In this document: positions 6,761 to 47,442 of the stretch, one piece after another
Numbering within the stretch: the stretch's first letter is position 1
How the letters are laid out: each line of letters opens with the position of its first letter
Origin: Phycisphaerae bacterium
GTDB taxonomy: Bacteria; Planctomycetota; Phycisphaerae; Sedimentisphaerales; UBA12454
Reading direction: 5' to 3'
Length of the DNA stretch: 64,000 nt
Assembly (NCBI GenBank): GCA_026386845.1
Contig: JAPLMW010000028.1
Span: forward strand, 2,729-66,728
Position numbers and translations under genes: made by a program
The notes under the pieces: generated by a model
Database searches by the model: none
The model's input: only the letters and a program-made list of their open reading frames with translations
Told to the model about the DNA's origin: nothing

Positions 6761-9075
<2,315 letters not shown>

Positions 9076-9076
9076 A

Positions 9077-10594
9077 TCAGCTTATCAGTTTGTTTGCTTC
9101 TTTAAAGACTTTGATTTCATTGGCGATTTTGTCTGCAAGTTCTTCGGAAAATTTACTGGTTTTATTGATTTCGTCTATATATTCGCCCCGTTCGCTTTTT
9201 AATCTTTGGATAAACGCTTGTGTAAATTTAGCAACTTTTTTGACAGCAATATCATCGACAAAGCCGCCTAAGCCGATAAATATAGTTATTACTTGTTCTC
9301 CGACGCTGATTGGTGAAAATTGCGGCTGTTTGAGCAATTCAACCATTCGAGCGCCTCTATCGAGCTGTGCTTGGGCGGTTACATCAAGCTCTGTGCCGAG
9401 TCTGGCAAAATTAAGCAGTTCATTATAAGCCGCAAGATACAGTCTTAACTTGGACGACACTTTCTTCATAGCTTCAACCTGAGCGTCTCCGCCGACGCGG
9501 CTTACACTTGTGCCGACGTCGATAGCAGGCCTTATGCCGGACAGGAACAAGTCTCTTTTAAGATATATCTGACCGTCCGTAATCGAAATGACATTGGTCG
9601 GAATATACGCCGAGACCTGCTCTTCCAGAGTTTCGACTATCGGCAGGGCGGTTATTGAGCCGCCGCCGAGTTTTTCCGATAGTTTTGCGCTTCGTTCGAG
9701 CAAACGGCTGTGCAGATAGAAAATGTCGCCGGGATAGGCTTCTCTGCCGGGCGGACGACGCAAAAGCAAACTAAGCTGACGATACGCTACGGCGTGTTTG
9801 CCTAGGTCGTCATAAACGCATAATACGTCGCGATGATGTTCATACATAAAATATTCCGCCAAAGCACAGCCGGCATAAGGAGCGATATACTGCATCGCTG
9901 CGAAGTCGGCAGCCGAGGAGATAACAACAGTAGTATATTCCATTGCTCCATTTTTGCGAAGGGTTTCAATTACTTCGGCTACGGTTGATTCCTTTAGGCC
10001 TATTGCAACGTAAATGCAAAGAACGTTTTCGCTTCGCTGATTTATTATCGTATCGATGGCGATAGCGGTTTTGCCGGTCTTTCGGTCGCCTATTATCAGT
10101 TCTCGTTGGCCGCGGCCAATAGGTATCATAGAATCAATGCTCTTAATACCGGTTTGCAGAGGCTTTTTGACCGGCATACGTTGAGATATGCTGGGAGCGT
10201 CGCATTCGATAAATCGGGTCGAGGCGGTTCTAATCGACGGTCCGCCGTCCAATGCCTCACAGAGTGGATTTACCACTCTGCCGAGAAGTTCATAGCCGAC
10301 CGGAATAGACAACAACTGACCGGTCGAATGAACATCCGAACCTTCCTTAACCTTTACATAGTCGCCGTAAATTACAGCGCCGATGGAGTCTTCTTCAAGG
10401 TTAAACACTTCGCCTTTGACGCCGTTTTCGAACATCAGCATTTCGCCTGCCATGGCGTTTTGCAGGCCGTAAATTCTTGCTATGCCGTCGCCGACCTCTA
10501 CAACCCGTCCGACAGCCGAGATATCAAGTTTGTTTTTATATTGGCTGATTTCCTGTTTTAGAATACTGCTTATTTCGTTGACATCGAGTTTCAT
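9077..10594 (-). CDS. atpA: F1 ATP synthase alpha subunit
   Basis: Walker [16 protein letters not shown] and the [25 protein letters not shown] motif. Confidence 0.97.
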
Positions 10595-38674: not shown

Positions 38675-39576
38675 TTACGGCCTCGGGTGATACTTCTTAT
38701 GGATACTTCGCAATCTTTCCTGGTCAACGTGCGTATAAATCTGCGTTGTTGCTATATCGACGTGTCCGAGCATCTCCTGAACGCTGCGCAAATCTGCTCC
38801 GCCGCTCAAAAGATGGGTCGCAAAACAGTGCCGAAGGGTATGCGCCGTCATTTGTCTTGATAGGCCTGCCCGGCAGACATATTTTTTTACAATCCGCCAG
38901 ATTTCAATCCTGCTCAATGCTCTGCCAGTTCGGCTTAAAAACAGAGAGTCACTGTGGCCTAAGCCATCCCTGACGGGACTGAATGGCTTTAAAAGTTTGC
39001 CCCTTAACTGCTCAATATATTCGATAACAGCGGCAATAGCGGTTTTGTTAAGAGGAATTACCCGCTCTTTTTTACCTTTGCCAAGGCATCGGACATAACC
39101 GATTTTTAAATTCACATCGCCGAGCTTTAGGCCTGCGGCCTCGCTTGCCCTTGTGCCGGTAGCGTAAAGCAGTTCCAGCAGGGCACGGTCCCGCAGATGA
39201 TAAGGCTCTTTCTCGTCAGGGGCGTTTAATAGTTTCGCGACCTGTTCTTTATTGCAGACTATCGGCAGCTTTTGCCACAGAATCGCATAAACATCTTTAT
39301 CGCGACAACGCTGCGGTTTATAGATGCTTCAGCTTTATTTTTACGGGCAAGACTCTTTGCGTAACCGAAAAGCGTTTCGTTATCGATGTCACCAGGTTTT
39401 TTAATGTTTTTCGCAAAGCAAAACTCGGCAAAATCCCGCAGGTCTCGCCCATATCCGAGAATCGTATTTTCGCTCAGCCCGGCCTCGATATTAAGGTAGT
39501 CCAGAAACGCCTTCACAATCTTTCCCAGCGATTGCTCGGCCAATTTCGTATTTAAGTTTTGAACTTGCGTTGACAT
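38675..39576 (-). pseudogene. XerD/XerC-type tyrosine recombinase, disrupted (frameshift plus ~15-aa gap at the domain linker)
   Basis: The N-terminal SAM-like domain ORF (39259-39576) ends ...VAIKMFMRFCGKSCR*. The catalytic domain is in another frame: AILWQKLPIVCNKEQVAKLLNAPDEKEPYHLRDRALLELLYATGTRASE...AHTLRHCFATHLL...LGHVDIATTQIYTHV. The catalytic R, HxxR and Y are all present. Confidence 0.75.
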
Positions 39577-39946
39577 TGTTTAACCCCCAGTTCTACTGGG
39601 GGTTCCGTTAAATTCTGTCTACTGTCTACTGTATCCTGTGTTCTCTCAAATAGCCCTATAAAACCTTGTTTTTTGGGCTATTTCTTGACATCTGTTTCAT
39701 TGGTCTGTAAGTTCCATCGTCAAAATCATTCCTTTTGCCTTAATAAATTTTGTGGGTTAACAGAGCCCAAGCGACAGCGCAGGGGGCAAATAAATAAGTA
39801 CGGTGGTTACCTTAATTATTCTGGAATAACCGGAGTTTATTTTGCCTTTCCTTTTTCCTCTTCTTCTGCCATCTTCACAGATTTCGAGAATGAATTAGCG
39901 AATAGACATGGCAGATAAATCTTGCTTCTAAGATCTTGAAAAATGG

Positions 39947-41290
39947 ATGTACTTAGCAGTAATATTGGAGGATAAAAACATAGAACAATGGTATAATTTT
40001 TTAAATGATACTATGCTTAACAAAAATAATAAATTGATTAAACGCTACAAAGCTCGAATAAAAAGGGCAAGAAAAAAGAGGTTTTCTTTATATGACAAAC
40101 ATTATTTTCAGTTAAAAGGCAAAAACGCAGAGGCTGTCTTGAATGAATTAGCACAAAAAACGTTTCTAACTGACTGGTGTTATCTCAACCCTAAATTACC
40201 TGATGAAAAGGAATTATGCGATTTGCTTGTCGTTTTTGATGATATTGCGATTATTTGGCAACTTAAGGATGTAAAACTAAAAAATGACCAAATTAAAGAA
40301 TCGGATTTCAATAAAAATATTAAACAAATATCCGGAGCATATAGGCAGTTATTTGAAATAAAAACAGAGATCGAATTAGTCAATCCAAGACGGGGGAAAG
40401 AAAAGTTTGACCCGGGCAGAATCAAAAATGTGTACCTTATCTCGGTATTTTTTGGAGATAATCCTTTCCGTCTTATGTCTATGATTGATATAAAAGGAAA
40501 GTATGTACACACTTTTACCAGACATTCAATTCAAATTATACTGAATGAATTGGACACAATATCAGATTTTACCAAATACTTAAAAGATATCGAGGATTTT
40601 CGTAAACAAACTAAAGCTGTTATTATAGATGGTGGCGCAGAAGAACTATTAGGGTATTATGTTAAAAACAACAGAAATTTTGATGGGGTTTTAAAACAAC
40701 ATTCCGATATCGGTTTGTATGTTCAAGGTGGGCATTGGGAGAACTTAATCAGAAGAAAAGAATATATTGCGAAACAAAAAGAGAATAAAATTAGTTATGC
40801 CTGGGATTATTTGATTGATATATGCCACACTGGAGATAATCCGGAATACGAACCAATTGCGAGAAAAATGGCCATTCACAATCGCTTCGAAAGAAGAATA
40901 CTTGCTCAAACATTTATTGAAGCACATGAGAAAGCAGAAAGTGTTCAGAATGGAATGTCGTATCGTCGTGCAACAACTTCAAATGGCATAACTTATTGTT
41001 TTTTGTTTTATGGTTATTCGGGAGATAAAGAACAACGGGAAATTCGCAAAACACAGCTTTTTGTATTTTGTTTTATTGCAAGAGGACAATTAAAGAACAA
41101 GGAAGTCATTGGTATAGCAACTGACCAATATGTAAAACCAGATATTGCTTTTGATTATTGCTATATCGATAAGCCAGAATGGACGCAAGAAGACCAAAAA
41201 ATAATGGAAAATGATATGAGAGAGACAGGCATATTTACGAAGATGGACGCGACGCATAAACAATTTTTTGAATTTCCGAAAAACGAATAG
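39947..41290 (+). CDS. hypothetical protein with NERD / PD-(D/E)xK-like N-terminal region
   Basis: A+T-rich 447-aa ORF. GKNAEAVLNELAQKTFLTDWCYLNPKLPDEKELCDLLVVFDDIAIIWQLKD follows the NERD layout (G..GE...L...E-x-D-hhhh...hhhh-[E/Q]-x-K). I recognise no domain in the C-terminal 270 aa. Confidence 0.45.
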   Translation: MYLAVILEDKNIEQWYNFLNDTMLNKNNKLIKRYKARIKRARKKRFSLYDKHYFQLKGKNAEAVLNELAQKTFLTDWCYLNPKLPDEKELCDLLVVFDDIAIIWQLKDVKLKNDQIKESDFNKNIKQISGAYRQLFEIKTEIELVNPRRGKEKFDPGRIKNVYLISVFFGDNPFRLMSMIDIKGKYVHTFTRHSIQIILNELDTISDFTKYLKDIEDFRKQTKAVIIDGGAEELLGYYVKNNRNFDGVLKQHSDIGLYVQGGHWENLIRRKEYIAKQKENKISYAWDYLIDICHTGDNPEYEPIARKMAIHNRFERRILAQTFIEAHEKAESVQNGMSYRRATTSNGITYCFLFYGYSGDKEQREIRKTQLFVFCFIARGQLKNKEVIGIATDQYVKPDIAFDYCYIDKPEWTQEDQKIMENDMRETGIFTKMDATHKQFFEFPKNE

Positions 41291-41365
41291 AAATAATAAT
41301 GACCATGATTTCCCCGCCGCGCAATCAATCCAAAAACTTTTCAACCATCTTCCTATGCCTATTTG

Positions 41366-41388
41366 TTAAAGGTGTCCGGCCCCTTTAA
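41366..41388. terminator. hairpin between the two convergent island genes
   Basis: TTAAAGG-tgtccggcc-CCTTTAA. There is no strong T-run, so it is weak. Confidence 0.3.
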
Positions 41389-41415
41389 TTCTCTCTTCTG
41401 TATCTCTCCTGTAAA

Positions 41416-43386
41416 TTAAATCTCCTCAGCATCTTCCATCATAGCCACACTTCCGAATGTTACTTTAAGAGGTGGTCTTAGAACATCTTTGATTGTATCC
41501 CAATTTATGTTGTTCCCTTCTTCCCGTTCTTCCCAAGTCTTTTTAATAATTTCCACTCCTTTCTGGCATCCTATAGCTATTTCATGAGATAGTTTGCCGA
41601 AACCCAAAACCTCGCCTATCCGGAGACTTTGCTTTCTCTTGTGAATATATTTATATTCTCTAATTTCGTCTTGGTGAATTTGACCTATAAGCGCCGCCGC
41701 TGATTTAGCGGACTTCTCTATCTCTTTTGGCTCCCACAATTCTACCTTTTTTCTGAAATTCTCTTCCAAACTAGTTGTCACAGACATGTGCTCGATGTAG
41801 ACAAGCTCTTTAATAAATTTTTGTATATAATACTTTCCTGCGGGTGTGCATGAAACATAAAATGGAATTTCCAATTGACCCTTCTCAATAAAATCTTCAG
41901 GCAACTGCCCTTGGGGAGAATGTATCAAACTCGAGCTCATCAAAATATCCATGCTTCTCCGCAAGGTCATTTCTGGATACCCACATATTTTTAATACCTT
42001 TAACACTCTCGTCAGAGGAAGTTCATAGTGGAAGGAATTTAATATACTCAAAATGCGAGGCATACAAAGCGAATTACAGAACTCGTGTTCAATATCTCCA
42101 CTTTCAAAAATATTCACTACGAGCGATTGGTCTTCTCCATATTCTCTATGAAAACAGTAATCTCCGCATATGAGACTTTCCATAAATCGCCGCCAAGATA
42201 ATTTTACTTGGAAGTTATTCCCGTCGTAGGAGCTAATCATGTCGTAGATCACCTTCATTGGAATATGACCAGATCGGAACGCAAGTTTTGCCATCGCCAG
42301 TTGAATACGCACGTTATCACTGGACATATCGCACAGTGTTTCCTTAGCATCTTGTTCCGTTAGACTTTCCAGCATCACATTAAGGAATCTATCCGGCTTT
42401 GACAGCGCGACTGATGTTCGTTCAGTCAAATTTATAACAGGAGGGGTTGGGGTAGAAGGCAATTTTTCAACGGCCGTATCTACTCGCTGTTTCAATACAG
42501 AACATGCGTCTGGAGCAAACAACTCTTGATCTGAGAGAAGGTAAGCAGCGGGGGCAATCTCTTGCTGGACAATGGGATAAGTGTGTTCTCTGACGGCAAT
42601 TATGATTTTGGCTCCAGGCATCCACGACAATTTATGGCGAGCCAGTTGAATAGCTCTGCGCTGAACTTCCATAGAAGCATGATCCAAGTTATCCCAAATT
42701 ATAATGGGTTCTTGACCATGTTTTATTAAGTAGTTAATACGTACCCTGTTAAAATTATGGATATCGTCTCGGAATGGTTTTATATGTTTCAGTTTCTCGA
42801 TTTTGGTAGCTGCAGGTGTTAGGTCGCTCCACATTTCCATATAGAAGAGTTTATCAAAGTCACATTCTTCTTCCCACATATTTAAATAATGAGGATCTTC
42901 CTCCAGCCAATTATACCGCCTATTTTTCGTAAAATAGTCGTTAATTCGGTGGTCTACATCTTGCTCCAACATACTTGCTGAAACGGATGCTGTCGCACAA
43001 TCGATAATTATCGGAGTTAAATTTTTGCAAACATCAGGATACTCCCTCGGCAAATATACGGAAAAGAAGAAATTCAAAAAGGTGGTTTTTCCACATCCTG
43101 CATGACCATAAATAAGACGGAGATGTCGTCGGCCTTTCCCTTTTTCTATAATAAAGGATAATAGTCTTTTTTCAGCATCTTCTTTAGGCATGTACCTTTG
43201 CTGTCGTCTATCCCAACGCTTACCAACATACCAGTTAGCTTGATATTTTTCCCGTGGACGTCCGTCAAATTCCTCAAATAAAATTAGAAATGCGGGTTCA
43301 TATGCACGAAATACCCCATTTCGTGGTAGATTGTAATTGCGGCCTATCTCTTCGTCTGTCAAGACACGTTTGCGTTGTTCAGACAT
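41416..43386 (-). CDS. P-loop NTPase, NACHT/STAND-like, with a long helical C-terminal region
   Basis: 656 aa. Walker A LIYGHAGCGKTTFLNFF, Walker B EPIIIWDNLDHAS (compare NACHT hhhhDGhDE), then AKIIIAVREHTY. RBS ggaaggg precedes the ATG. The ORF is A+T-rich. Confidence 0.6.
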   Translation of the reverse strand: MSEQRKRVLTDEEIGRNYNLPRNGVFRAYEPAFLILFEEFDGRPREKYQANWYVGKRWDRRQQRYMPKEDAEKRLLSFIIEKGKGRRHLRLIYGHAGCGKTTFLNFFFSVYLPREYPDVCKNLTPIIIDCATASVSASMLEQDVDHRINDYFTKNRRYNWLEEDPHYLNMWEEECDFDKLFYMEMWSDLTPAATKIEKLKHIKPFRDDIHNFNRVRINYLIKHGQEPIIIWDNLDHASMEVQRRAIQLARHKLSWMPGAKIIIAVREHTYPIVQQEIAPAAYLLSDQELFAPDACSVLKQRVDTAVEKLPSTPTPPVINLTERTSVALSKPDRFLNVMLESLTEQDAKETLCDMSSDNVRIQLAMAKLAFRSGHIPMKVIYDMISSYDGNNFQVKLSWRRFMESLICGDYCFHREYGEDQSLVVNIFESGDIEHEFCNSLCMPRILSILNSFHYELPLTRVLKVLKICGYPEMTLRRSMDILMSSSLIHSPQGQLPEDFIEKGQLEIPFYVSCTPAGKYYIQKFIKELVYIEHMSVTTSLEENFRKKVELWEPKEIEKSAKSAAALIGQIHQDEIREYKYIHKRKQSLRIGEVLGFGKLSHEIAIGCQKGVEIIKKTWEEREEGNNINWDTIKDVLRPPLKVTFGSVAMMEDAEEI

Positions 43387-43497
43387 TGTTAATGCCCTTC
43401 CAAATTACAAACCTTATTTTTTTGATAATAAAATAAATTAAGACAGTGAAACTTTTGAAAAAGTCCACGCCATTAAATTGTTTATTAATTTTTGACA

Positions 43498-43556
43498 TTT
43501 TCTGCTGTTGCAATTCCTCGTTGCTTTACAAAATTCTACCACCGCTTTTTTCAAAG
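43498..43556 (+). repeat. ~60-nt dispersed repeat, copy 2 (copy 1 at 24998-25056)
   Basis: See copy 1. It lies ~110 nt upstream of the NTPase start codon. Confidence 0.75.
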
Positions 43557-43639
43557 TCAATAAAATTTATCCACAAAAACTGATAACCGATAACTGATAA
43601 CCGAATTGCTAAGTCCCAATAGCACAAAACGCGCAACTA

Positions 43640-43772
43640 CGAGTTCGTGAAATTCCTCAAAAACCCTCGGAGCCGTTGAAGCCGCAGCGCAAACCCCCGC
43701 AGGGGGCAGCGAAGACCCCCACGCTTAGTTTTCTCGCTTCGGGGAAACTGTGGGGGCAAAAACTCGTAAAAA
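43640..43772. other. GC-rich multi-hairpin structured element closed by an 8-bp long-range stem
   Basis: tacgagtt (43640-43647) pairs with aactcgta (43765-43772). Inside are cccccgcaggggg and cccccac...gtggggg hairpins. It is followed by iteron-like words: taaaaatccc taaaaaccca taaaaatccc. Confidence 0.4.
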
Positions 43773-44090
43773 CCCCTTACTTTTCGTTAAAAATCCCTAA
43801 AAACCCATAAAAATCCCAAACTTTTTGCCATTTTTCCTGACACTATTATGCTAAGTTGCGCGAATATCAAAAAAAGTTGCGCATTTGAGCGAAAAAAATT
43901 ATCCTAACCCCTTTATTCTCACAAAATATTAACGACTTACATCATTTTCTCCAACGCGAATTAAGGACTTACATTAGTTTTATACTTCTTTACTTCCTTA
44001 TTTCCTTACTTCCTACTTCTAAATTATCTTGTGAGTCTTTTATTTGCAGTTTATAATCTTACTAAACTTACGCATTTAAAGGGATTGACG

Positions 44091-46598: not shown

Positions 46599-47180
46599 TT
46601 AATGTGTGCCTGATTCTGATATTACCTTTTGGAGAAGTTCGTTTAATCCGAGTTTTTTGGCCCAATTTTTCAAATATTCAAAATCGAGAGAATTTTTCTG
46701 CACGGACAAAACGCCCAAAACATCCGTCCATTGACGGTCTGAAGAAAAGTCTGACTGTTTATACCATTTGAGCTTTAAAAGTATAATATCTTCCGGTGAC
46801 ACAAGAGAGAAGGACTTATTGATAGATTCCTCGATTTTGTTTTTTTTGCTTCGAGTCAGAAGCAGTTTTTCAAATTCGCTGTTTGCAGTAAAGATATCTA
46901 TTTTAAAAGCTGTCTCAAAATGAATGATATTAAAACTGCTTTGGGCACGAATCGCCTGATACATAGCCTCCTTACTGATGTAGAAACTATCTTTCAGCAT
47001 TTCATAAAGCCGCTCTGCGACCGGCAAAAAAGGTTGTACCGTAATATCCGCATCTTGTGTAAAACGCGGCGTTCCATATATCGAACTTGCGATTGAACCG
47101 CCGATGGCATATCCTATCTTCAATTCATCAAGAATATCTGTTAGTCTTTTAATTACTTCGCTCTGCTGAACATCACTCAT
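46599..47180 (-). CDS. nucleotidyltransferase-fold protein (downstream gene of an overlapping two-gene cassette)
   Basis: IGGSIASSIYGTPRFTQDADITV fits the NTase signature hG[GS]x9-13Dx[DE]. Its start ATG at 47180 overlaps the upstream gene's stop (ATGAGTGA). Its stop codon directly abuts the glk stop. Confidence 0.55.
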   Translation of the reverse strand: MSDVQQSEVIKRLTDILDELKIGYAIGGSIASSIYGTPRFTQDADITVQPFLPVAERLYEMLKDSFYISKEAMYQAIRAQSSFNIIHFETAFKIDIFTANSEFEKLLLTRSKKNKIEESINKSFSLVSPEDIILLKLKWYKQSDFSSDRQWTDVLGVLSVQKNSLDFEYLKNWAKKLGLNELLQKVISESGTH

Positions 47181-47442
47181 CGGCTTTGTCCCCATAGACT
47201 TTGTTATATAGTTCTTCACCCAGGTGCTGTTTTGCCCATATATGCCAAACCTCTCTTTTGTCGGCATTGGGATATCTCATTCGAATTCCAGTCATTGCAA
47301 GAGACTGTCCAAAACGATAAGCGTCACAGACAATCCCGAATTTTTTTGCCGGACTCATTTTGCGATACAAATCATATTGAATTTCGAGAATCTCTTTTGG
47401 TGTGTCAGTCTTCATTTTCTTATGCAATTCGGTCATAAACAT
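47173..47442 (-). CDS. small protein (89 aa), upstream partner of the NTase gene
   Basis: It is translationally coupled to the NTase gene (8-nt overlap) and I recognise no motif. Confidence 0.5.
   Translation of the reverse strand: MFMTELHKKMKTDTPKEILEIQYDLYRKMSPAKKFGIVCDAYRFGQSLAMTGIRMRYPNADKREVWHIWAKQHLGEELYNKVYGDKADE

What the first reader, a model, noticed from the sequence alone, without database searches (positions are those of the whole stretch)
39947..41290. 447-aa protein with a NERD-like nuclease core in which the canonical ExK is QxK
The segment GKNAEAVLNELAQKTFLTDWCYLNPKLPDEKELCDLLVVFDDIAIIWQLKDVK follows the NERD/PD-(D/E)xK order: helix with E, then E-x-D, a beta strand, then [E/Q]-x-K. 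The last motif reads QLK. The 270-aa C-terminal part is unassignable by eye. This could be an active nuclease variant, or a DNA-binding or sensor derivative.
Basis: inference. Interest (0 to 1): 0.55.

Follow-up and report, generated by a model that had tools for sequence, protein, structure and literature searches.

The report
Unnamed NERD-like nuclease gene family
The gene encodes a member of a large, unnamed, horizontally mobile protein family (also carried on clinical IncN resistance plasmids) that joins a divergent NERD-type nuclease core, in which Gln or Ser replaces the usual catalytic Glu, to a conserved C-terminal domain of unknown fold; it works alone, not with the neighbouring NTPase.

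Summary
The 447-aa ORF at 39947-41290 (+) is real, and the quoted segment is residues 57-109. The N-terminal domain (about residues 52-195) is a distant NERD / PD-(D/E)xK relative. Evidence: 31 of 115 family members give sub-threshold hits to Pfam NERD and to no other nuclease family; a confident AF2 model shows the helix-strand-strand-strand-helix-strand order; and E62, E89, D92, K107 and Q127 are near-invariant in 240 homologues. Position 105 is Q (173) or S (61) and E only once, so this is a fixed (Q/S)xK variant, not decay. QxK (Mrr) and SxK (Cfr10I, ThaI, EcoO109I) are known in active enzymes, so an active nuclease is most likely. The C-terminal 250 residues fold confidently (pLDDT 95.7) but match nothing in PDB, Pfam, NCBIfam or PADLOC. 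The family is large (1,552 clusters at 50% identity), spans bacteria and archaea, and has no conserved neighbour in about 95 loci. It sits on 126 plasmids, occurs sporadically beside or inside R-M loci, and is once fused to HsdS. The neighbouring NTPase is unrelated. Function and substrate (DNA or RNA) are untested. I judge it a new variant of a known kind, of moderate interest.

The parts
39947..41290 (+). Complete gene, 447 aa plus stop; member of an unnamed family of about 400-aa proteins
   Evidence: ORF list. 808 homologues at E<=1e-3 in the word-indexed search. 1,552 50%-identity cluster representatives in the exhaustive search. GC 0.326 against 0.44 for the window.
39947..40096 (+). Residues 1-50: non-conserved N-terminal tail with a K/R-rich stretch (about residues 25-46); other members have a SEC-C zinc-knuckle here or at the C-terminus
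   Evidence: pLDDT below 50 for residues 1-26 and 42-57. Alignment A1 shows K/R-rich or SEC-C alternatives. SEC-C found in 14 of 115 members.
40100..40531 (+). Residues 52-195: divergent NERD-like PD-(D/E)xK nuclease domain
   Evidence: Secondary-structure order H59-73, E78-80, E93-97, E100-109, H118-137, E142-146. NERD hit in 31 of 115 members. The higher-probability local Foldseek hits are PD-(D/E)xK nucleases. The N-core HMM aligns the motif region to the D..D-I-K segment of a HincII-family REase.
40115..40273 (+). E89-x-x-D92 ... Q105-x-K107 (Q127 lies on the next helix)
   Evidence: Conservation counts in 240 sequences. The same residues are >=90% conserved in both the Q-type and S-type subfamilies. 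Spacing 30/13/2 against 32/13/2 for the mutated residues E535/D567/E580/K582 of the NERD nuclease ZwsA (bioRxiv 10.64898/2026.04.06.716636).
40532..41287 (+). Residues 196-447: conserved C-terminal module of unassigned fold. A helical part carries the ELDTxxDF motif; an alpha/beta part carries invariant R313, R316 and R317 and other conserved arginines
   Evidence: AF2 of this region alone: pLDDT 95.7, pTM 0.90. No PDB match at E<1e-3, TM<=0.27. No Pfam, NCBIfam or PADLOC hit. No profile similarity to the N-terminal domain. Conserved residues.

Best explanation
The gene encodes a stand-alone, metal-dependent endonuclease. The N-terminal domain is a distant NERD-type PD-(D/E)xK fold. Its active site is built from E62 (first helix), E89 and D92 (second core strand), K107 (third strand) and probably Q127 (following helix). 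The residue that is Glu in canonical ExK is a hydrogen-bonding Gln or Ser, as in Mrr-type (QxK) and Cfr10I/ThaI-type (SxK) enzymes. The conserved, arginine-rich C-terminal 250 residues, of a fold not yet seen in solved structures, most likely bind and select the nucleic-acid substrate or gate the nuclease. The variable K/R-rich or SEC-C tail is an accessory binding element. The protein acts on its own. It is a horizontally transferred single-gene module found in chromosomes, in conjugative plasmids and occasionally inside R-M loci, so its most probable role is in genetic conflict: restricting or excluding foreign nucleic acid. What is shown: the gene, its conservation, the fold class, the lack of partners and its mobility. 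What is inferred: catalytic activity, the role of the C-terminal domain and a defence role. The substrate (DNA or RNA) is open.
For: Fold and family: NERD is the only recurrent nuclease family, hit by 31 of 115 members with best E 1.8e-4, and the hits cover the motif region. The AF2 secondary-structure order fits. The N-domain-derived Foldseek hits are R.BspD6I (prob 0.85, TMt 0.45), Nt.BspD6I, the R2 endonuclease domain and Cas4, plus viral Cas4-like and RecB-like proteins at prob 0.93-0.97. The HincII-family D..DxK segment aligns to D92..Q105xK107.

Active-site integrity: E62, E89, D92, K107 and Q127 are conserved at 97% or more in 240 sequences and in both subfamilies, with no subfamily-specific compensating acid. 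QxK and SxK occur in active enzymes (PMC11037411; PMC3025569).

Stand-alone status: no neighbour cluster is shared by more than 4 of 91 loci. No Pfam family occurs in more than 2 of about 80 upstream or downstream neighbours.

Mobility and conflict context: GC is 0.326 against 0.44. Identity is 45-50% between bacterial and archaeal members. There are 126 plasmid records, 86 of them conjugative. One member lies inside a Type I R-M operon, others lie beside EcoRII-type R-M on IncN and two genes from a HincII-like REase, and one is fused to HsdS. The SEC-C tail is shared with the PADLOC PDC-S12 and CBASS E2 models.
Confidence: 0.55

Rival explanations
1. The NERD-like domain is catalytically dead and the protein is a nucleic-acid-binding sensor, regulator or scaffold derived from a nuclease.
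For: The canonical Glu of ExK is absent in 239 of 240 members. No cognate methyltransferase or immunity gene is conserved next to a potentially toxic nuclease. The gene is tolerated as a singleton among housekeeping genes.
Against: Inactivated nuclease folds usually lose several catalytic residues, yet here E62, E89, D92, K107 and Q127 stay near-invariant at 25-30% overall identity. Q and S at this position are compatible with catalysis in Mrr-type, Cfr10I, ThaI and EcoO109I enzymes.
Confidence: 0.2
2. The protein is the nuclease effector of a two-gene system with the adjacent 656-aa P-loop (STAND-like) NTPase at 41416-43386 (-).
For: The two genes are adjacent, both are below the window's GC, and they lie together between a xerD-like gene and sugar-metabolism genes. 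The NTPase gives weak AAA_16 and nSTAND5 hits.
Against: The genes are convergent. No NTPase homologue was found in any of about 95 loci carrying family members, including the 64-75% identical relatives. The NTPase family has only 11 members, and three of their loci lack the NERD-like gene.
Confidence: 0.03
3. It is a housekeeping DNA repair or recombination nuclease (resolvase or RecB-like) and not a conflict gene.
For: Weak fold resemblance to Cas4/RecB-family exonucleases. Many loci are in housekeeping surroundings.
Against: Distribution is patchy: 152 stretches confirmed by tblastn in a pattern-limited scan of one genome per 185,579 species. Identity is high across domains of life. The gene has atypical GC, is carried on conjugative plasmids, and has no conserved synteny with repair genes.
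Confidence: 0.1
4. It is an RNA endonuclease, like the only NERD domains with functional data, possibly acting at the ribosome or on RNA through its K/R-rich or SEC-C tail. This is a sub-variant of the best explanation, differing in substrate.
For: ZwsA NERD cleaves RNA-phage genomes, and TbLrRP2 NERD is required for rRNA processing. SEC-C-type tails are known from my own background knowledge as ribosome/SecB-binding elements of SecA.
Against: Nothing in the sequence discriminates RNA from DNA. Association with R-M loci and the fusion to HsdS point towards DNA.
Confidence: 0.2

Closest known systems
NERD (nuclease-related domain, Pfam PF08378), e.g. ZwsA of Pseudomonas aeruginosa and TbLrRP2 of Trypanosoma brucei
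   Same: The order of elements is the same: Gly-x-x-x-Glu helix, acidic residue plus Asp on a strand, then x-K on the next strand. The spacing of catalytic positions is nearly identical (E-30-D-13-Q-x-K here, E535-32-D567-13-E580-x-K582 in ZwsA). NERD is the only Pfam nuclease family hit recurrently. ZwsA is also a stand-alone effector.
   Different: Scores are below Pfam's threshold. Glu of ExK is replaced by Gln or Ser throughout the family. An extra invariant Glu (E89) sits three residues before the Asp. The domain is joined to a 250-aa C-terminal module found in no described NERD architecture. There is no transmembrane segment, helicase, S4 or zinc-ribbon partner.
Mrr-type catalytic domain (PD-QxK) of Type IV restriction enzymes
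   Same: Same superfamily and the same D...QxK active-site variant in an enzyme class that works as a solitary gene without a methyltransferase (PMC11037411).
   Different: No Pfam Mrr_cat hit in any of 115 members. No recognisable modified-base reader domain (wH, SRA/PUA, YTH). One quarter of the family has SxK instead.
Type II REases with SxK active sites (Cfr10I/Ecl18kI group, EcoO109I, ThaI)
   Same: Ser replaces the acidic residue of (D/E)xK while activity is retained. ThaI uses Glu (helix), Asp and Lys, which parallels E62, D92 and K107 (PMC3025569).
   Different: No sequence relationship was detected, there is no adjacent methyltransferase, and no relocated subfamily-specific acid was found.
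Rugutis (single-gene Abi-like antiphage protein of lactococcal plasmids; SEC-C motif plus a body of unknown fold)
   Same: Same design: a terminal SEC-C knuckle on a roughly 350-400-aa plasmid-borne single-gene protein whose body matches nothing in the PDB (PMC11381338, PMC13064643).
   Different: A 359-aa N-terminal-SEC-C protein of an L. lactis dairy plasmid, presumed to be Rugutis or a close homologue, shows no similarity to this family beyond the tail (hhalign probability 0.4%, hmmsearch score below 0).

Membership tests
NERD (PF08378) | Match to the Pfam NERD model at or above the gathering score (22.1 bits) | tested here: not met
   The query gives no NERD hit at E<=1. 31 of 115 members hit it only below threshold (best E 1.8e-4; 14.6 and 15.2 bits for P0213 and P0232). 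This indicates distant homology, not formal membership.
NERD (PF08378) | Catalytic E (helix) ... D ... E-x-K, as mutated in ZwsA (E535, D567, E580, K582) | tested here: not met
   E62, D92 and K107 are conserved with matching spacing, but the ExK Glu is Q (173), S (61) and E only once in 240 sequences.
PD-(D/E)xK superfamily | alpha-beta-beta-beta-alpha-beta core fold | tested here: inconclusive
PD-(D/E)xK superfamily | Conserved Asp at the start of the second core strand and Lys on the third, about 10-20 residues apart, plus an acidic residue on the first helix | tested here: met
   D92 (239/240), K107 (238/240) and E62 (234/240), with D-to-K spacing of 15. The motif aligns to D..D-I-K of a HincII-family REase.
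Mrr-like Type IV restriction enzymes | Mrr_cat domain plus a DNA-modification reader domain | tested here: not met
   No Mrr_cat or reader-domain Pfam hit in the query or in 115 members. The C-terminal fold is unassigned. Only the QxK motif is shared.
Type II restriction-modification system | Adjacent cognate DNA methyltransferase | tested here: not met
   N6_Mtase/Eco57I appears in 2 of 77 downstream and none of the top families among 82 upstream neighbours. There is none in the window.
STAND/AAA NTPase + nuclease two-gene defence system | Conserved co-occurrence of the two genes | tested here: not met
   No NTPase homologue in about 95 loci with the family gene. NTPase relatives lack the family gene. 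The two genes are convergent.
Rugutis | Homology of the protein body, not only the SEC-C tail | tested here: not met
   hhalign probability 0.4% and hmmsearch score below 0 against the presumed Rugutis-type L. lactis protein. That protein's identity with the published Rugutis is inferred from length, motif and source only.
Catalogued anti-phage defence systems (PADLOC-DB 2.0.0) | Match of the protein body to a defence-system model | tested here: not met
   No hit for the query. In 8 other members only the ~20-residue SEC-C tail, or the fused HsdS domain, matches.
Any nuclease | Metal-dependent phosphodiester cleavage | not testable with these tools
   Requires biochemistry.

The most novel reading that the evidence does not exclude
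This is the founding description of a widespread single-protein immune nuclease. It spans more than 1,500 sequence clusters across many bacterial phyla and several archaeal lineages, and includes a recurrent gene of clinical IncN resistance plasmids. A NERD-derived (Q/S)xK nuclease is controlled by a new C-terminal sensor fold and restricts phages or competing plasmids, possibly backing up neighbouring R-M systems in the way PrrC does inside a Type I R-M operon.
Probability: 0.3. Interest if true: 0.65.

Novelty: new variant of a known kind. Interest (0 to 1): 0.45.

Why it matters
The family is large, phylogenetically very broad and entirely unannotated: it has no Pfam, NCBIfam or PADLOC model and is labelled 'hypothetical' or, misleadingly, 'SEC-C metal-binding domain-containing protein' or even 'SecA'. 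It is present on many conjugative IncN-type plasmids of Klebsiella, E. coli, Citrobacter and Enterobacter that carry resistance genes. Recognising it as a probable nuclease gives a testable function to a recurrent plasmid gene. It adds a (Q/S)xK branch to the little-studied NERD group, whose only characterised members cut RNA. It also flags a confidently folded 250-residue domain with no structural precedent. If it proves to be a defence or exclusion factor, it would bear on plasmid-phage-host conflict in clinical strains.

Tried and rejected
1. **NTPase partnership.** Rejected: no co-occurrence anywhere.
2. **Rugutis membership.** I followed this through the literature and retrieved a 359-aa SEC-C protein from an L. 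lactis plasmid. No similarity beyond the tail.
3. **Internal duplication / second nuclease domain in the C-terminal half.** hhalign probabilities were at or below 0.4%. The weak Cas4/RecB-like Foldseek hits of the C-terminal model have TM<=0.27 and RMSD above 15 A, so I did not accept them.
4. **Direct searches of the query.** Pfam, NCBIfam and PADLOC gave nothing; a Spore_GerAC_N hit at E 0.016 was judged spurious. PDB sequence searches with the single sequence and with the profile gave nothing meaningful.
6. **Conserved-neighbour search.** ORF clustering and bulk Pfam scans of flanking genes found no recurrent partner.
7. **Promoter and terminator scan around the gene.** Counts did not exceed the shuffles.
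8. **Phage collection.** No homologue.
9. **Compensating acidic residue specific to the S-type subfamily (Cfr10I-style).** None found near the site.
10. **Literature on IncN + SEC-C.** No papers.

Full report
**Observation.** The window holds an ATG-initiated ORF at 39947..41290 (+) of 447 aa. It is identical to a deposited hypothetical protein of a Phycisphaerae MAG. The only correction is that the acidic pair reads E89-L-C-D92 (E-x-x-D, not E-x-D). The gene has 32.6% G+C against 44% for the window and 43-48% for its housekeeping neighbours (polA, an MFS transporter, a xerD-like gene, galE, a ROK kinase). It therefore looks recently acquired.

**Family.** Pfam, NCBIfam and PADLOC give nothing credible for the protein, and PDB sequences give nothing either. 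It nevertheless belongs to a large family. The word-indexed search found 808 proteins at E<=1e-3. The exhaustive HMMER search found 1,552 representatives of 50%-identity clusters, 958 of them below 1e-10. Nearly all are about 400 aa and match from residue ~50 to the end, so the two halves always travel together. A scan of one genome per species confirmed 152 matching stretches. These came from Planctomycetota, Chloroflexota, Patescibacteria, Acidobacteriota, Bacteroidota, Desulfobacterota and Pseudomonadota, and from Woese-, Bathy- and Micrarchaeota. Identity between bacterial and archaeal members is 45-50%, which indicates horizontal transfer. The first ~50 residues of the query are not conserved and are poorly modelled. 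They contain a K/R-rich stretch that other members replace with a SEC-C zinc-knuckle at the N- or C-terminus.

**The nuclease core.**
- In 240 sequences, E62 (234), E89 (240), D92 (239), K107 (238) and Q127 (238) are essentially invariant. Position 105 is Q in 173, S in 61, T/A in 5 and E in one.
- The Q-type and S-type subfamilies share the same conserved set: E62, W77, P82, E89, C91, D92, L94, K107, Q127, G130, A131, H188, E201, L202, D203, T204, D207 ... R313, R316, R317. No subfamily-specific acidic residue compensates near the site.
- An AlphaFold2 model built on 44 sequences is confident (pLDDT 84.5, pTM 0.82). It places H59-73, E78-80, E93-97, E100-109, H118-137 and E142-146 in the alpha-beta-beta-beta-alpha-beta order expected of a restriction-endonuclease-like fold. 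E62 falls on the first helix, D92 at the start of the second strand and Q105-x-K107 on the third.
- When 115 diverse members were scanned individually against Pfam, NERD (PF08378) was hit by 31 (best E 1.8e-4). SEC-C was hit by 14, and no other nuclease family by more than one.
- The NERD hits map to the stretch carrying the motifs (P0213 26-87 to model 30-91; P0232 23-95 to model 24-95). All are below the gathering score, so this is distant homology.
- Foldseek of the whole model against the PDB and BFVD gave no hit below 1e-3. The local hits with raised probability are nevertheless almost all PD-(D/E)xK proteins: Cas4 SSO0001, R.BspD6I small subunit (prob 0.85, TMt 0.45), Nt.BspD6I, the R2 endonuclease domain, an alkaline exonuclease, and viral Cas4-like and RecB-like proteins at 0.93-0.97.
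It is a HincII-family restriction endonuclease (Pfam E 5.6e-126), with D92...Q105-x-K107 aligned to its D...D-I-K at the same 13-residue spacing (E 0.007).
- The spacing E62-30-D92-13-Q105-x-K107 also parallels E535-32-D567-13-E580-x-K582, the residues whose mutation inactivates the NERD nuclease ZwsA.

**Is (Q/S)xK compatible with catalysis?** Yes, by precedent. PD-QxK is the recognised motif of the Mrr catalytic domain (PMC11037411). SxK occurs in EcoO109I, the Ecl18kI/Cfr10I group and ThaI. In those enzymes the serine is dispensable and Glu (helix), Asp and Lys form the site (PMC3025569). Given the strict retention of E62, E89, D92, K107 and Q127 at 25-30% overall identity, an active enzyme is more likely than a dead one. 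I could not inspect coordinates to confirm spatial convergence.

**The C-terminal half.** Residues 196-447 modelled alone give pLDDT 95.7 and pTM 0.90. They consist of a helical part carrying the invariant ELDTxxDF, GGEE and SYxWD motifs, then an alpha/beta part (helix, two strands, long helix, two strands, helix) with invariant R313, R316 and R317 and further conserved arginines. Foldseek finds nothing significant in the PDB (best E 5e-3, TM<=0.27, RMSD above 15 A). There is no profile similarity to the N-domain. I treat it as an unassigned fold. A role in substrate binding or regulation is inferred only from its arginine-rich conservation.

**Context.**
- ORF clustering over 91 loci (83 non-redundant) found no neighbour shared by more than four loci.
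- Bulk Pfam scans of the immediate upstream (82) and downstream (77) genes found no family present more than twice.
- The closest relatives (64-75% identity) are singletons among fatty-acid, amino-acid and other housekeeping genes.
- The window's neighbour, a 656-aa P-loop protein on the opposite strand (convergent), has no homologue in any of these loci. It belongs to a family of only 11 proteins, and three of their loci lack the NERD-like gene. The two genes are not a system.
- A minority of loci are conflict-related. One member lies inside a Type I R-M operon (hsdS-hsdM-hsdS-DUF3800-X-hsdR). Another lies beside R-M, HEPN, AbiEi and conjugation genes. One is fused to an HsdS domain, and one lies two genes from the HincII-like enzyme.
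- Distant full-length homologues (24-28% identity, SxK type, all core residues kept) occur on 126 plasmid records, 86 of them conjugative, mostly Klebsiella, Citrobacter, Providencia, E. coli and Enterobacter. They are annotated 'SEC-C metal-binding domain-containing protein', 'hypothetical' or even 'SecA'.
- On an IncN KPC plasmid the gene lies next to the resolvase and an EcoRII-type R-M pair. On another plasmid it lies downstream of repA near ardB, ardK and mucAB.
- None occurs in the phage collection. PADLOC models match only the SEC-C tail, shared with PDC-S12 and CBASS E2.

**Comparison with known systems.** The closest known kind is NERD within the PD-(D/E)xK superfamily. Formal Pfam membership fails, and so does the ExK criterion. 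It works like Mrr-type or ThaI/Cfr10I-type variants at the active site, but shows no homology to them. The only NERD domains with functional data act on RNA (ZwsA, TbLrRP2), so the substrate here is open. Rugutis is a validated lactococcal single-gene Abi with a SEC-C tail and an unmatched fold, and looked like a possible identity. A 359-aa L. lactis plasmid protein fitting its description shows no similarity beyond the tail, so the resemblance is architectural only.

**Verdict.**
- The variant is (Q/S)xK and is family-wide.
- It has precedents among active enzymes.
- The NTPase is irrelevant.

The most likely reading (confidence 0.55) is an autonomous, horizontally mobile endonuclease with a novel C-terminal recognition or regulatory domain, plausibly used in genetic conflict. 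A catalytically inert binder (0.2), a housekeeping repair nuclease (0.1) and a two-gene system (0.03) are the rivals. Novelty: a new variant of a known kind. Interest is moderate (0.45). It is raised by the family's size, its complete lack of annotation, its presence on clinical plasmids and the unassigned C-terminal fold. It is limited by the absence of any functional data and by an active-site variant that already has precedents.

Noticed in passing
window 41416-43386 (-): A 656-aa P-loop protein (GHAGCGKTT) with only weak AAA_16/nSTAND5/ATPase_2 hits. It belongs to a very small family (11 proteins in 5.8 billion), is convergent with the NERD-like gene, and has GC 0.40. Its relatives sit in varied contexts: one next to a MNT/HepT toxin-antitoxin pair, one near an integrase.
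   Followed up: partly
window 38675-39576 (-): The XerD/XerC-type tyrosine recombinase is split into two ORFs (105 aa N-terminal SAM-like domain, 146 aa catalytic domain) by a single frameshift around 39116-39258. This is either a pseudogene or an assembly error in the MAG.
   Followed up: partly
window about 39580-44030: A low-GC stretch (0.33-0.40 against 0.44) comprises just the NERD-like gene, the NTPase and a 644-bp intergenic region, wedged between the xerD-like gene and a lipoprotein-like ORF plus galE. It looks like a small acquired islet. No flanking repeats were searched for.
   Followed up: no
L001 / L014 (Sedimentisphaerales MAG, contig of 605 kb), L001:3316-13204: A Type I R-M operon carries two inserted passenger genes between hsdS and hsdR: a DUF3800 protein and the family member. 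A YgjP-like metallopeptidase gene follows. This arrangement recalls PrrC/RloC-type guards of R-M systems.
   Followed up: partly
protein P0131 (603 aa): A full-length family member (residues 3-398) is fused to a Type I R-M specificity (HsdS, Methylase_S) half-domain (residues 401-571). I did not check whether the fusion is real or a gene-calling artefact.
   Followed up: no
L032:13266-14102 (+) (Woesearchaeota MAG): A HincII-family Type II restriction endonuclease (Pfam E 5.6e-126) lies two genes downstream of the family member. It was the only non-family ORF detected by the family's N-core HMM.
   Followed up: partly
L101 (E. coli IncN plasmid pEC517_KPC) 1998-3473; L096 (pQnrS1_035148) 8962-10437: A 491-aa homologue annotated 'SEC-C metal-binding domain-containing protein' recurs on IncN-type clinical resistance plasmids, beside resP and an EcoRII-like R-M pair, or downstream of repA near ardB/ardK/mucAB. 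One record even labels it 'preprotein translocase subunit SecA'. No paper holding both 'IncN' and 'SEC-C' was found.
   Followed up: partly
PADLOC models PDC-S12 and CBASS E2/E1-E2 versus family members: The ~20-residue SEC-C knuckle is shared as a terminal add-on by several otherwise unrelated defence proteins: PDC-S12, CBASS E2 variants, Rugutis and this family. This suggests a common accessory role for the motif in conflict systems.
   Followed up: no
L102:2986-4065 (L. lactis plasmid pUL021A): A 359-aa N-terminal-SEC-C protein matches the published description of the antiphage protein Rugutis. It is flanked by IS712 and a CHAP-domain gene. It is unrelated to the family studied here.
   Followed up: yes
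window 46599-47442 (-): Two minus-strand ORFs (222 aa and 89 aa) overlap by about 95 bases. This could be a small two-gene module; it was not examined.
   Followed up: no
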